Below the pieces are notes generated by a model. That model saw only the letters and a program-made list of their open reading frames with translations, searched no databases and was not told the DNA's origin. The translations under genes were made by a program, and so were the position numbers. DNA of 64,000 nucleotides, taken from the NCBI GenBank assembly GCA_944380545.1, contig CALWHV010000013.1:18350-82349 (forward strand). The letters are read 5' to 3'. The stretch comes from an uncultured Eubacterium sp. Lineage in GTDB: Bacteria; Bacillota; Clostridia; Oscillospirales; Acutalibacteraceae. Each line of letters begins with the position of its first letter. Positions within the stretch are counted from its first letter, which is position 1. This document shows, in pieces, positions 2,111-48,397 of this stretch.

Positions 2111-4519
2111 TTAAACGGCAACTATATTGACGAGTTTATTCGGAACATAGATTTCCTTTTTGACGGTTTTGCCTGCGATGGCGGCGGCTATCTTTTCATC
2201 CGCCTTTGCAAGGGCAAGCACCTCGTCCTTAGGCATATCCACGGGAACGGTTATGCGCGAGCGCACCTTGCCCATTATCTGCAAAACTATCTCCACCGTG
2301 TTTTCAACGGTTTTGCTCTCGTCATACTCAGGCCACGCAGCCTCGTGGACGAAGCCGCCGAAGCCCATACGCTCCCAAAGCTCCTCCGTTACATGGGGAG
2401 CGAACGGATTCAGAAGCACGGTGAGCGTTTTGAGCTCGTCCCTTGTGACGCTCTTTTTATCATAGAGCTTATTGAGCAGGGTCATCATAGCGGCGATAGC
2501 CGTGTTGCACTTGAGGTTGTCTATATCCTCAGTTACCTTTTTGATGGTTTTGTGCATCAGCGGCTCAACTTCCTCGCTGTAGCCGCTTTCATCAGACGCC
2601 ATCTGCTGAAGGTTCCAAAAACGCTCTATAAAGCGCTTGCAGCCCTTTATGGAATCCGAGTTCCAGGGAGCGGCCTTTTCAAAATCGCCGATAAACATCT
2701 CGTAAAGGCGCATTGTGTCCGCCCCGTAGCGGTCAACGATCTCGTCCGGATTTACGACATTGCCCCTTGATTTGCTCATCTTTTCGCCGTTTTCGCCGAG
2801 GATCATTCCGTGCGAGGTGCGCTTCATATATGGCTCCGAGGTGGGCACGACGCCGATATCATAAAGGAATTTATGCCAGAAGCGGCTGTAAAGCAGGTGA
2901 AGCGTTGTGTGCTCCATTCCGCCGTTGTACCAATCCACAGGAGTCCAATAATCCAGCGCCTCCTTAGACGCGAGCGCGTTTTGGTTATGCGGGTCGGTAT
3001 AGCGCAGGAAATACCAGGACGAGCCCGCCCACTGAGGCATAGTGTCCGTTTCTCTTTTTGCCGGCGCGCCGCAGCACGGGCAGGTGGTGTTTACCCAATC
3101 CGTTATCTTGGCAAGCGGTGATTCGCCGGTGTCCGTGGGCTCGTAGGAATCAACATTGGGCAGCCTGAGCGGAAGCTCGCTTTCAGGCAGCGGAACATAG
3201 CCGCATTTTTCGCACTTTACTATCGGTATCGGCTCGCCCCAATAGCGCTGGCGGCTGAACACCCAGTCGCGCAGCTTGAAGTTTATCTTTTCGCGGCCCT
3301 TGCCGTTTTCCTCAAGCCATTTTATCATTGCCTTTTGCGCGTCCTCAACGCTCATACCGGTGATAAAGCCGCTGTTTACGAGCTTGCCCGTAGCGCAGTC
3401 CGTAAACGCCTCCTTTTGAACATCCTCGCCGCCGGAGACGACCTCGATGATAGGAAGGTTGAATTTCTTGGCAAATTCCCAGTCGCGCGTGTCGTGGGCG
3501 GGAACAGCCATAATGGCGCCGGTGCCGTAAGAGGTGAGAACATAATCCGAGATGAATATGGGTATCTCGGTATCGTTTACGGGATTTATGCCCATAACGC
3601 CGACGAGCCTGACGCCCGTTTTATCCTTATTTATCTCCGTGCGCTCAAAATCGCTTTTCTTTGCCGCCTCCTGCTGATAGGCGCGCACCTCGCTCATATT
3701 TTCAATAAGCGGCGCCCATTTATCAATAAGCGGATGCTCCGGCGATATTACCATATATGTTGCGCCGAAAAGCGTGTCGCACCTGGTGGTATAAACGGTT
3801 AGCTTATCGCCCGTAGTGGTGGCGAAATCCACCTCTGCGCCGTGGCTTTTTCCTATCCAGTTTTTCTGCTGCACCTTGACGCGGTCTATAAAATCAACAT
3901 CGTCAAGATCTTTGACAAGGCGGTCTGCGTAATCGGTTATCTTGAGCATCCACTGGCTCTGCTCTTTTCTGATGACCTCTGAGCCGCAGCGCTCGCAGAC
4001 GCCGTTTACGACCTCCTCGTTTGCAAGCACGCATTTGCAGGAGGTGCACCAGTTTACCGCCATTTTCTTTTTGTAGGCAAGCCCTTTTTTGAAGAGCTGA
4101 AGGAATATCCACTGAGTCCACTTATAATAATCGGGGTCGGTGGTGTTTATCTCTCTGGTCCAGTCAAACGAAAAGCCGAGGGACTGGAGCTGCTGCTTGA
4201 AATGGGCGATATTGTTTTTCGTTACCTCCGCGGGATGGACATGGTTTTTGATGGCGTAATTCTCCGTAGGCAGGCCGAAGGCGTCCCACCCCATAGGGTA
4301 GAGCACATTATAGCCCTGAAGGCGCTTTTTCCTTGCAACGATATCAAGCGCGGTGTATGAGCGCGGATGACCCACATGGAGCCCCTGTCCGCTTGGGTAG
4401 GGAAACTCCACAAGGCAGTAGAATTTTGGCAGCGAATAATCGTCCTTTGCCGCAAAGGTGTTTTGCGAATACCAGATATCCTGCCACTTTTTTTCAATCT
4501 GTTTGAAATCGTATTCCAT
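2111..4519 (-). CDS. leuS: Leucine--tRNA ligase
   Basis: FPYPSG-LHVGH (HIGH-like) and KMSKS motifs, 802 aa. Confidence 0.98.
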
Positions 4520-47331: not shown

Positions 47332-47560
47332 GCCGGCGCAAAATAAAGGTCGTCGGATGTTGATAAAGCAGATCAGAACACGCAAGCTTCCGGTGACTCC
47401 GAGTACGCGGGCTGCTGATAGCAGCCCCTACGCGATGTTTAGTAAAATAACGCATTTTTTCGGCGATTGCGAGCGGAATTGTATAAATTTCGACGGCGCG
47501 GCGTCCATTTTCAACAAACTGAGAGGTCATCGGATGATGACCTCTTTTCATTTTCAAAAC

Positions 47561-47598
47561 AAAAAGCCGCTGCAAGCAGTATGCTTCTTGCAGCGGTT
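47561..47598 (-). terminator. Terminator hairpin downstream of tRNA-Val
   Basis: CCGCTGCAAG...CTTGCAGCGG followed by CTTTTTGTTTT on minus strand. Confidence 0.7.
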
Positions 47599-47675
47599 TG
47601 GTGAAGACGAGTGGACTTGAACCACCGACCCCCTGCATGTCAAGCAGGTACTCTAACCAACTGAGCTACGCCTTC
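47599..47675 (-). tRNA. tRNA-Val (GAC)
   Basis: GAAGGCG..AGCTCAGTTGGTTAGAG, anticodon arm CCTGC-TTGACAT-GCAGG, GGTTCAAGTCC, encoded CCA; 77 nt. Confidence 0.96.
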
Positions 47676-48202
47676 AAATATTCAATTAAAGCGCCGCAGC
47701 CGTTCGTCCTTGCCGGGCGTCAGCCCGCCTGCGGTCTCAAAAGCAAAAAACCATCCGCGCCGCCATCATTTTCGGTGCGTGCAGTTTTAAGCGAACTGAT
47801 TTTTGCACGGGCAAGGCACAAAACGCAGTTAATCCTTTCGGATTAACGAGGATTTTAACGCAGCACGCGCGGAAAGCAGTCGCTTAAAACCATATTGTTT
47901 TCGGTTCTCGCTTGCCCCACCAACTGAGCTACGCCTTCAAATATTCAATTAAAGCGCCGCAGCCGCTCGCCCTTGCCGGGCCTCAGCCCGCCTGCGGTCT
48001 CAAAAGCAAAAATCCATCCGCGCCGCCATCATTTTCGGTGCGTGCAGTTTTAAGCGAACTGATTTTTGCGCGTGCAAGGCACAAAACGCAGTTAATCCTT
48101 TCGGATTAACGAGGCTTTTAACGCAGCACGCGCGGAAAGCAGCCGCTTAAAACCATATTGTTTTCGGCTCTCACTTGCCCCACCAACTGAGCTACGCCTT
48201 CA
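47656..48202. repeat. Two tandem 263-bp units bounded by three 21-bp direct repeats of the tRNA-Val 5' end
   Basis: ACCAACTGAGCTACGCCTTCA at 47656, 47919 and 48182 (period 263); the units differ at 10 positions by manual alignment. Confidence 0.95.
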
Positions 48203-48257
48203 TAATATTTTGGTTTGATTGTGAAAAGCATCGCCGCAGGCTTTCACCTGCGGCGAA

Positions 48258-48333
48258 TGGAGCTACTGGTCGGACTCGAACCGACGACCTGCGCATTACG
48301 AATGCGCTGCTCTACCAACTGAGCCACAGTAGC
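48258..48333 (-). tRNA. tRNA-Thr (CGT)
   Basis: GCTACTG..GGCTCAGTTGGTAGAGC, GCGCA-TTCGTAA-TGCGC, GGTTCGAGTCC, encoded CCA; 76 nt. Confidence 0.96.
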
Positions 48334-48368: not shown

Positions 48369-48397
48369 ATTATACAATAAAAACCGCCGAAGGTCAA
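48369..48397 (-). promoter_or_regulatory. Sigma-A promoter of tRNA-Thr/tRNA-Val locus
   Basis: TTGACC-17 bp-TATAAT with TG extension. Confidence 0.8.

What the first reader, a model, noticed from the sequence alone, without database searches (positions are those of the whole stretch)
47677..48181. The 263-bp unit looks like a structured RNA read in the tRNA sense, starting with a rebuilt D-arm
Seen (minus strand): after the tRNA fragment the unit continues GCTC-AGTTGGTG-GGGC, which re-forms a 4-bp D-stem with a G-U pair. A ~107-nt irregular hairpin follows (plus coordinates 47784-47890 in copy 1): outer stem GTTTTAAGCGACTG/CAGTTCGCTTAAAAC, middle stem GCGCGTGC/GCACGCGC, and apical perfect 8-bp stem GTTAATCC-GAAA-GGATTAAC with a GNRA loop. 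A further stem is CCGCAG..GGGC-TGAC-GCCC..CTGCGG. Three inter-copy differences convert Watson-Crick pairs to G-U on the minus strand (outer stem A/G, middle stem C/T, AACC/AGCC-GGTT); on the plus strand they would be mismatches. One other difference creates a mismatch. Inference: the units lie inside the tRNA precursor transcript and may be released by RNase P or other processing as a novel ncRNA.
Basis: partly seen in the sequence, partly recalled or inferred. Interest (0 to 1): 0.62.

Follow-up and report, generated by a model that had tools for sequence, protein, structure and literature searches.

The report
Truncated mobile hairpin repeats beside tRNA-Val
The two 263-bp units upstream of tRNA-Val are truncated copies of a roughly 277-bp gene-less mobile repeat (a MITE-like element with a conserved three-armed fold) that is common in gut Clostridia, so they are a lineage-specific insertion and not a dedicated tRNA-linked RNA gene.

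Summary
There are two 263-bp tandem units, each starting with the first 20 nt of tRNA-Val, and the described hairpins and the G-U-type differences between copies are present.

The units are not a locus-specific RNA. Unit positions 30-237 match a dispersed repeat with at least 13 more copies in this 1.87-Mb genome. A covariance model of the full element (about 277 nt) hit 46 of 151 sampled genomes of the order and 31 of 150 of the class.

The element has TA-flanked 27-bp inverted ends and two arms of about 108 nt. In 40 diverse copies, 75 of 83 base pairs show compensatory changes.

The window copies keep arm 1 and part of arm 2 but lack the terminal stem. Relatives have tRNA-Thr and tRNA-Val adjacent with no insert. 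The "rebuilt D-arm" sits at the insertion junction, and nothing supports RNase P release.

No Rfam family matches, and no cognate transposase was found. Earlier notes of this scan flagged the same family on other genomes as a Correia-like MITE.

The parts
48369..48397 (-). Sigma-70-like promoter (TTGACC-17-TATAAT) upstream of tRNA-Thr; likely start of the tRNA-Thr/tRNA-Val transcript
   Evidence: Consensus scan, 11 of 12 matches. Function is inferred.
48258..48333 (-). tRNA-Thr (CGU)
   Evidence: ARAGORN; Rfam tRNA, 72.1 bits.
48231..48256 (-). 11-bp G+C-rich hairpin followed by UGCUUUUCA. It is conserved between tRNA-Thr and tRNA-Val in relatives and is a weak terminator or a processing hairpin.
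   Evidence: Terminator-like scan. The same hairpin is present in G068, G093, G058 and G077.
47939..48201 (-). Unit 1 (263 bp). It consists of the tRNA-Val 5' fragment (48201-48182), GG, the element-derived body (48179-47966, with arm 1 at 48153-48047), and a non-family tail (47965-47939).
   Evidence: TRF. Covariance model R1 scores 137.9 bits, against 210-238 for full copies. BLAST gives 88-92% identity to dispersed copies over unit positions 30-237.
47676..47938 (-). Unit 2 (263 bp). It consists of the tRNA-Val 5' fragment (47938-47919), GG, the element-derived body (47916-47703, with arm 1 at 47890-47784 and partial arm 2 at about 47774-47703), and a non-family tail (47702-47676) that ends in an A/T-rich, spacer-like sequence.
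   Evidence: TRF. R1 scores 149.2 bits. The alignment to the model shows that P1 and the 3' strand of arm 2 are missing or mismatched.
47599..47675 (-). Intact tRNA-Val (GAC), the only GAC-anticodon valine tRNA found in the assembly
   Evidence: ARAGORN on the window and on the whole genome; Rfam 66.3 bits; 98-100% identical to relatives.
47552..47596 (-). Intrinsic terminator after tRNA-Val (CCGCUGCAAG...CUUGCAGCGG followed by a U-tract)
   Evidence: Read from the sequence. The inner part was called by the terminator scan.

Best explanation
The two units are degenerate copies of a non-autonomous mobile repeat (a MITE-like element). The full element is about 277 bp. It is flanked by TA and has roughly 27-bp terminal inverted repeats that pair as a stem (P1). 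Between them lie two hairpin arms of about 108 nt, giving a three-way-junction fold.

In the lineage of this genome one copy landed at, or within 2 nt of, the only TA of the D-loop region of tRNA-Val. The event left a duplicated block of about 30-35 bp (the upstream spacer plus tRNA nt 1-20) on both sides and removed the element's 3' end. The resulting 263-bp block was then duplicated in tandem, and an intact tRNA-Val remains downstream.

The 'rebuilt D-arm' is a by-product of this junction. The units are probably transcribed as part of the tRNA-Thr/tRNA-Val precursor and discarded as leader when RNase P cuts at the real tRNA-Val 5' end.

Shown: membership of the family, the family's fold, the strand asymmetry, and the empty site in relatives. 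Inferred: the order of events, co-transcription, and the absence of a function specific to this locus.
For: (1) Unit positions 30-237 match at least 13 other places in the genome at 88-92% identity. Several lie at contig ends, as expected for a repeat that breaks assemblies.

(2) Full copies are 273-281 bp and end TA(A/G)G...C(Y)TA with about 27-bp inverted repeats. There are 53 unique insertion sites in other genomes.

(3) Structure. In 43 copies 94.7% of cells are paired, against 37-51% when the partners are slid, and 51 of 83 pairs have changes on both sides. In 40 diverse model-aligned copies the figures are 90.6% against 39-46%, with 75 of 83 pairs changed on both sides.

(4) G-U exceeds A-C on the tRNA-sense strand by 310 to 51. 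The excess is strongest in arm 2: 116 vs 12 in one set and 73 vs 20 in the other.

(6) Empty site. G068, G093, G058 and G077 have tRNA-Thr, the hairpin, 25-30 nt and then tRNA-Val, with no unit.

(7) The window units score 138-149 bits against 210-238 for full copies, and they lack P1 and the 3' strand of arm 2.

(8) There is no conserved ORF and no Rfam family.

(9) Short deletion derivatives exist, and some copies abut one another across a single shared TA.
Against: No cognate transposase was found. DDE_3 (IS630 type) is absent from six element-bearing genomes, one of them a complete chromosome. DDE_Tnp_1 and mariner are absent from five copy-rich genomes, although the mariner search also had no positive control. 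Y1_Tnp is absent from the two most copy-rich genomes tested for it.

The strand-specific G-U pattern and the conservation of internal arms across a whole bacterial class are unusual for a plain cut-and-paste MITE.

The window junction reads GG where TA is expected. A 30-35-bp target duplication together with loss of one end is not a canonical transposition product, so the history is uncertain.

A precise empty site showing the TA duplication was not obtained here, because the orthologous intergenic regions were too diverged. No expression data were available.
Confidence: 0.72

Rival explanations
1. The units are a functional structured ncRNA recruited into the tRNA operon. They would be made from the tRNA precursor and released by RNase P or other processing.
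For: The family fold covaries strongly, and G-U pairs favour the tRNA-sense strand. Three of the ten differences between units keep pairing through G-U on that strand. The units lie between a promoter and tRNA-Val.
Against: The units are truncated relative to the family: P1 and the 3' strand of arm 2 are lost. They are absent from the same site in the closest relatives. No tRNA-like fold is detected. A single unit does not fold better than shuffles (z = -1.13). The fragment has no T-arm or acceptor partner for RNase P to recognise.
Confidence: 0.08
2. The direct repeats (spacer plus tRNA nt 1-20) are att sites. In this reading a larger island integrated by site-specific recombination into the 5' part of tRNA-Val, carrying a MITE copy near one end. 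Most of the island was later deleted, and the remnant was duplicated.
For: Three identical copies of the 20-nt tRNA fragment are present. The internal copies have an upstream spacer (TTGAATATTT) that differs from the native left one (AAAATATTAT), as expected for an element-borne att copy. One end of the MITE is cut off, which a deletion would explain.
Against: No integrase gene or other island remnant is present between the repeats. Known tRNA-targeting integrases normally use the 3' part of the gene (general knowledge). The 5' junction coincides to within 2 nt with the genuine 5' terminus of the element and with the D-loop TA. That favours a transposition-type junction.
Confidence: 0.12
3. 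The family moves or acts through a single-stranded intermediate, either ssDNA as in IS200/IS605-REPIN systems or RNA. The fold itself, and not only the ends, would be the substrate, and the window copies would be dead products of such an event.
For: There is a strand-specific G-U excess, with near-invariant G-U pairs (G30-U144, U65-G107, U71-G100 in A2). The internal arms covary across class-level divergence. No DDE transposase was found.
Against: P1 shows no strand asymmetry (21 G-U vs 15 A-C). TA flanks and long inverted ends are typical of DDE-type elements. Y1_Tnp is absent from copy-rich G194 and G227. The folded strand is mostly antisense to neighbouring genes, which is the opposite of what lagging-strand ssDNA transposition would give in genomes whose genes are co-oriented with replication.
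Confidence: 0.15
4. The tandem duplication is an assembly artefact. In that case a single unit is present in reality, or two strain variants were joined.
For: The genome is a 17-contig assembly, and this repeat family breaks contigs elsewhere.
Against: The two units differ at 10 positions and are joined in perfect register with no indel. Reads could not be examined.
Confidence: 0.06

Closest known systems
Correia / NEMIS elements of Neisseria, and TA-flanked ERIC-type MITEs
   Same: They are small, gene-less and multicopy. They have about 26-bp terminal inverted repeats flanked by TA, are often found just 5' of genes, and fold as hairpins when transcribed. No cognate transposase is known for Correia. 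(Review PMC3184786, and general knowledge.)
   Different: This family is about twice as long (about 277 vs 104-157 bp) and has two long, independently covarying internal arms. It spans a whole bacterial class with subfamilies diverged well below the level seen within Correia. It also shows strand-asymmetric G-U pairing.
bcr1 repeats of the Bacillus cereus group
   Same: bcr1 is a mobile intergenic repeat in Firmicutes. It has a cruciform-like fold of two independent stem-loops maintained by compensatory changes at the RNA level, and it is transcribed (PMC3184786).
   Different: bcr1 is about 155 bp, has 5-bp direct repeats and is confined to one species group. The present family has TA flanks, 27-bp inverted ends that close the fold, and a class-wide range. 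No sequence similarity between the two was tested.
REPIN/RAYT and IS200/IS605-derived palindromic elements
   Same: They are multicopy and folded, and their hairpins matter on one strand only.
   Different: Those elements lack long terminal inverted repeats and TA flanks, and they depend on a Y1 HUH transposase. Y1_Tnp is missing from the most copy-rich genomes tested.
tRNA genes and the tRNA-like domain of tmRNA
   Same: The 3' inverted repeat of many subfamilies reads like a T-arm followed by an acceptor strand, for example CGGGTTCGACTCCCGGCAGC in this genome. The window units start with a real tRNA-Val 5' fragment.
   Different: There is no cloverleaf, no aminoacyl acceptor end and no tag reading frame. 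ARAGORN finds the real tmRNA elsewhere (C7:54561-54910), and it is not similar to the element.

Membership tests
Bacterial MITE (non-autonomous DNA transposon) | Many dispersed copies within one genome | tested here: met
   There are at least 13 further copies in the 1.87-Mb genome.
Bacterial MITE (non-autonomous DNA transposon) | Terminal inverted repeats | tested here: met
   The inverted ends are about 27 bp and are paired in 94-97% of cells (helix 1). The window units themselves lack the 3' repeat.
Bacterial MITE (non-autonomous DNA transposon) | Target-site duplication (here TA) | tested here: inconclusive
   TA was found at both ends of all 53 sites, although the site-detection step itself required TA(A/G)G and C(Y)TA ends. 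The flank preference is T|TA...TA|A, and adjacent copies share one TA. TA is self-complementary and could be part of the repeat, and no exact empty site was recovered.
Bacterial MITE (non-autonomous DNA transposon) | No coding capacity | tested here: met
   The longest ORFs are 27-79 aa, with no conserved strand or position.
Bacterial MITE (non-autonomous DNA transposon) | Presence/absence polymorphism at orthologous sites | tested here: met
   The tRNA-Thr/tRNA-Val spacer is empty in relatives. The C17 locus is shorter by about one element in five relatives. The rimP-nusA spacer is filled in G194 and empty in G100.
Bacterial MITE (non-autonomous DNA transposon) | A related autonomous element or transposase acting in trans | tested here: not met
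   No DDE_3, DDE_Tnp_1 or mariner domains were found in element-bearing genomes. Y1_Tnp is not correlated with the element. No pair of inverted ends encloses a transposase ORF. Draft genomes may have lost IS copies, and the mariner search had no positive control.
Described structured RNA family (Rfam 15) | Match to a curated covariance model | tested here: not met
   Only the two tRNAs were reported in the window region at E <= 10. Nothing matched three full copies at E <= 1 apart from neighbouring riboswitches.
   ARAGORN and the Rfam tRNA model hit only 47599-47675 and 48258-48333. The units hold nt 1-20 of the tRNA and a possible 4-bp D-stem only.
IS200/IS605-type or REPIN single-strand element | Y1 HUH transposase in the same genomes; subterminal hairpins without long inverted ends | tested here: not met
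   Y1_Tnp is absent from G194 and G227, which carry the most copies. The element has long inverted ends.
Structured RNA in general | Covariation on one strand and a stable transcript | tested here: inconclusive
   Covariation and the G-U asymmetry are met.

The most novel reading that the evidence does not exclude
The roughly 277-nt family is not a plain cut-and-paste MITE. In this reading it is a selfish, structured single-stranded element (RNA or ssDNA) whose three-way-junction fold and tRNA-T-arm-like termini are the actual substrate of an as yet unknown mobilising or processing enzyme. It would also act on neighbouring genes in an orientation-dependent way, which would explain why its 5' end, and almost never its 3' end, abuts Shine-Dalgarno sites.
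Probability: 0.15. Interest if true: 0.8.

Novelty: new variant of a known kind. Interest (0 to 1): 0.45.

Why it matters
For this locus the result is deflationary. What looked like a novel tRNA-linked RNA is a broken copy of a mobile repeat.

The family itself deserves attention. It is one of the commonest intergenic repeats in gut Clostridia, present in roughly a fifth to a third of sampled genomes and often at a dozen or more copies. It keeps an exact length and a three-armed fold across class-level divergence, shows strand-specific pairing, and has no recognisable transposase.

It also sits preferentially with one end flush against ribosome-binding sites, including inside an essential operon (rimP-nusA). 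It breaks assemblies of metagenome-derived genomes and can be mistaken for riboswitches, leaders or sRNAs. A curated covariance model of the family would remove those false leads. It would also give a handle on how such elements move and how they affect expression in organisms that are hard to culture.

Tried and rejected
- **Rfam:** scans of the window region at E <= 10 and of three full copies at E <= 1 gave nothing for the element.
- **tmRNA origin:** the ends resemble a tRNA-like domain, but the genome's real tmRNA is elsewhere and is not similar.
- **Autonomous partner:** I looked for pairs of inverted ends further apart than about 280 bp in 117 loci. The only case was two separate copies. 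Unpaired ends in the copy-rich genome G194 were contig ends or short derivatives flanking a MATE transporter gene.
- **Transposase domains:** DDE_3, DDE_Tnp_1 and mariner gave no hits (the mariner search had no positive control). Y1_Tnp was not correlated with the element.
- **Phages, plasmids and viral contigs:** no match.
- **The tRNA-fragment/element junction in JGI metagenomes:** no match.
- **Literature search by literal sequence:** no relevant paper.
- **Coding potential:** none conserved.
- **Exact empty sites for the TA duplication:** the intergenic DNA of sister species was too diverged.
- **Origin of the unit tail:** it resembles the region downstream of tRNA-Val only weakly (local score 23 vs 14 +/- 2.8 for shuffles, p about 0.01 uncorrected). 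I left this as a lead.
- **Promoters inside the element:** a TGnTAAAAT extended -10 occurs in many copies on the folded strand. It overlaps conserved pairing, has no consistent -35, and could not be tested.

Full report
**What is in the window.** On the minus strand there is a good sigma-70-type promoter (48397-48369) followed by tRNA-Thr(CGU) at 48333-48258. Next comes an 11-bp G+C-rich hairpin with a short U-run (48256-48231), then two 263-bp tandem units (48201-47939 and 47938-47676). These are followed by an intact tRNA-Val(GAC) at 47675-47599 and a terminator. Each unit starts with GAAGGCGTAGCTCAGTTGGT, the first 20 nt of tRNA-Val. About 9 nt upstream of the fragment are also repeated (AATATT(A)TG).

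The ten differences between the units include three that switch Watson-Crick pairs to G-U on the minus strand, and one that creates a mismatch. A single unit does not fold better than shuffled sequence (z = -1.13), so any case for structure has to come from relatives.

**The units belong to a dispersed repeat.** BLAST of one unit against the whole assembly (1.87 Mb, 17 contigs) found that unit positions 30-237 recur at 88-92% identity in at least 13 other places. Several of these lie at contig ends, which is how a repeat that breaks assemblies looks.

The dispersed copies are longer than the shared core and have their own ends. They measure 273-281 bp, start TA(A/G)G and end C(Y)TA, and carry inverted repeats of about 27 bp.

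Related copies occur in sister genomes. Almost all hits were gut MAGs labelled Acutalibacteraceae, Eubacterium sp., Ruminococcaceae, Oscillospiraceae or Clostridia.

A covariance model built from 43 copies (R1) found the family in 46 of 151 sampled genomes of the order (32 of 97 genera). It also found it in 31 of 150 genomes of the class. Only 12 candidates per genome were scored, and many genomes filled that cap.

Nothing matched in phage, plasmid or viral-contig collections. No Rfam 15 family matches, and a literal-sequence search of the literature found nothing relevant.

Earlier notes of this scan had flagged the same family on at least eight other genomes as a MITE-like or Correia-like element of about 275 bp. 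I treated those notes as leads and tested the points I rely on.

**The fold.** RNAalifold on 11 and then 43 copies gives a three-way junction. Its parts are:
- a terminal stem P1 formed by the inverted ends;

On the 43-copy alignment 94.7% of cells form standard pairs, against 37-51% when partners are slid by 1-3 columns. Of 83 pairs, 51 show changes on both sides, and no shuffle out of 500 reaches any observed measure.

That set was collected with a pattern requiring the arm-1 apex sequence, so I also took 40 diverse model hits from many genera. In these, 90.6% of cells are paired against 39-46% when slid, and 75 of 83 pairs show double changes. This includes the apical stem, which now covaries: GUUAAUCC/GGAUUAAC, GCCAAUGC/GCAUUGGC and GAACCC/GGGUUC. 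That alignment was fitted to the model's structure, so it leans towards that structure.

The element is also significantly similar to its own reverse complement over its whole length (z of about 8). The two halves are therefore related by inversion. There is no conserved ORF.

**Which strand.** In the orientation that matches the tRNA sense in the window, G-U cells outnumber A-C cells 310 to 51. Base composition is balanced, and 183 to 51 remains after near-invariant G-U pairs are removed.

The asymmetry is uneven across the helices:

| Helix | G-U | A-C | Note |
|---|---|---|---|
| P1 | 21 | 15 | no asymmetry |
| base of arm 1 | 64 | 21 | 43 of the 64 come from one invariant G-U pair |
| apex of arm 1 | 109 | 3 | invariant columns, so weak evidence |
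| arm 2 | 116 | 12 | strong |

The caveat is that strand choice in the diverse set was made by a model that already contains those G-U pairs.

**Where copies sit.** Among 36 non-redundant copies, both neighbouring genes are antisense to the folded strand in 16 cases and sense in 6.

Among 53 unique sites, a Shine-Dalgarno sequence plus start codon lies directly outward of the 5' end in 15 cases (10 by a strict rule). At the 3' end the count is 1 case (0 strict), even though the two terminal 27 nt are nearly the same sequence.

The immediate flanks favour T|TA...TA|A, and C is over-represented at position -2 on the 5' side only. In six copies the element's own TAA or TAG serves as the stop codon of the upstream gene.

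In genome G194 two reverse-oriented copies lie flush against the ribosome-binding sites of rimP and nusA. The rimP-nusA spacer of a congener (G100) is empty. The reverse orientation is therefore evidently tolerated inside operons. Whether the bias reflects selection (for example termination or processing in the forward orientation) or an asymmetric insertion mechanism is open.

**Mobility and the missing enzyme.** Three orthologous sites show presence/absence. Short deletion derivatives exist, and some copies abut each other across one shared TA. All of this fits a MITE.

No cognate transposase turned up:
- DDE_3 is absent from six element-bearing genomes, including a complete chromosome.
- DDE_Tnp_1 and mariner domains are absent from five copy-rich genomes, although the mariner search also had no positive control.
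- Y1_Tnp is present in some genomes but absent from the two with the most copies.
- No pair of ends encloses a transposase ORF.

Draft MAGs can lose IS copies, so this is absence of evidence only.

**What happened at tRNA-Val.** The closest relatives at this locus (G068, G093, and also G058 and G077) have tRNA-Thr, the same hairpin, 25-30 A/T-rich nt and then tRNA-Val, with no unit. The 526 extra bp are therefore specific to this lineage.

Aligned to the model, each unit keeps the 5' inverted repeat from GGCAAGCGAG onward. That is the normal start of a common subfamily that begins TA|GGCAAGCGAG. Each unit also keeps all of arm 1, plus the 5' strand and apex of arm 2. It lacks the 3' strand of arm 2 and the 3' inverted repeat, and carries a 27-nt tail instead. 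The units score 138-149 bits against 210-238 for the full copies in the same genome.

The 5' junction falls where the tRNA has its only D-loop TA (GGT|TA|GAG), but it reads GG instead of TA. The tail ends in a spacer-like A/T-rich run that resembles the native upstream spacer of relatives. The tail also weakly resembles the region downstream of tRNA-Val.

The simplest account has three steps:
- one insertion at the D-loop TA;
- an event that deleted the element's 3' end and left the spacer plus tRNA nt 1-20 duplicated;
- a tandem duplication of the 263-bp block.

A site-specific integration remnant is a possible alternative. The sequence alone does not settle the order of events.

The 4-bp GCTC/GGGC stem is real as sequence, but it sits on the junction. 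It has no T-arm or acceptor partner, and no program recognises it as tRNA-like. RNase P is expected to cut at the real tRNA-Val 5' end only.

If tRNA-Val is still expressed from the upstream promoter, the units are part of a leader of about 580 nt that is removed. No promoter is evident in the short spacer of relatives.

**Verdict.** The object is a pair of truncated copies of a widespread MITE-like element with a conserved fold, best compared with Correia/ERIC elements and with bcr1 of the Bacillus cereus group (PMC3184786).

The family differs from those elements in size, in the depth of its structural conservation, in its strand asymmetry, in its class-wide range and in having no identifiable transposase. 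I therefore file it as a new variant of a known kind. The locus itself is ordinary.

Noticed in passing
G000 C1:53111-53389 (locus L007 1492-1770); Cobalamin riboswitch hit at L007 1730-1905 on the minus strand: A full copy of the element lies directly after a cobalamin riboswitch aptamer (45.8 bits, above the gathering score), between it and the downstream minus-strand ORF. The tail of the riboswitch alignment runs into the element at low confidence, so the insertion may have displaced the expression platform.
   Followed up: partly
3' inverted repeats of many family members, e.g. G000 C1:53360-53389; loci L194, L195, L204 (ends listed): The 3' end of many subfamilies reads like a tRNA T-arm plus acceptor strand (for example CGGGTTCGACTCCCGGCAGC and GGGTTCGCCTCCCGTCAGC). 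A GTTCRA/GTTCGG motif occurs at a similar distance from the 3' end in many of the 40 diverse copies inspected by eye. Whether this reflects origin from a tRNA gene or mimicry is unknown.
   Followed up: partly
Loci L032, L057 and L129, immediately 3' of element copies (flanks printed); L129 2647-2910: A 27-nt perfect hairpin, GTGTGACAGG-ACTCGAA-CCTGTCACAC, flanked by TA, abuts the element's 3' end in three different genomes. In L129 the same sequences bound a second, diverged element of about 260 bp. There seems to be a set of related TA-flanked elements, including minimal hairpin-only forms.
   Followed up: no
G000 C1:174966-175080 and onward to about 176000: One copy is cut off after about 120 nt by a low-G+C segment. 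The segment encodes a 201-aa protein with an N-terminal XRE-type HTH-like sequence, hydrophobic segments and CxxC pairs. It is possibly a later insertion or a deletion boundary.
   Followed up: no
G194 C4:126-1148 (locus L181): The rimP-nusA operon carries two reverse-oriented copies flush against both ribosome-binding sites. The last five codons and the stop of rimP are supplied by the element. The congener G100 has an empty rimP-nusA spacer.
   Followed up: partly
G068 C1, about 3530-3610 (locus L174), orthologous to the 5' UTR that holds the G000 C17:193677-193955 copy: At the same 5' UTR the sister species has a hairpin of about 75 nt made only of family-type inverted ends (TAAGCAAGAGAGATAAATCCGAAATCG...CGATTTTCGCTCTTGC). 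This is either an independent insertion or an old copy reduced to its terminal stem.
   Followed up: no
window 48231-48256 and the same place in G068, G093, G058 and G077: The hairpin between tRNA-Thr and tRNA-Val is conserved in position, with changes in the loop and stem, and is followed by only 4 U. It looks like a leaky terminator or a processing signal inside a two-tRNA transcript.
   Followed up: no
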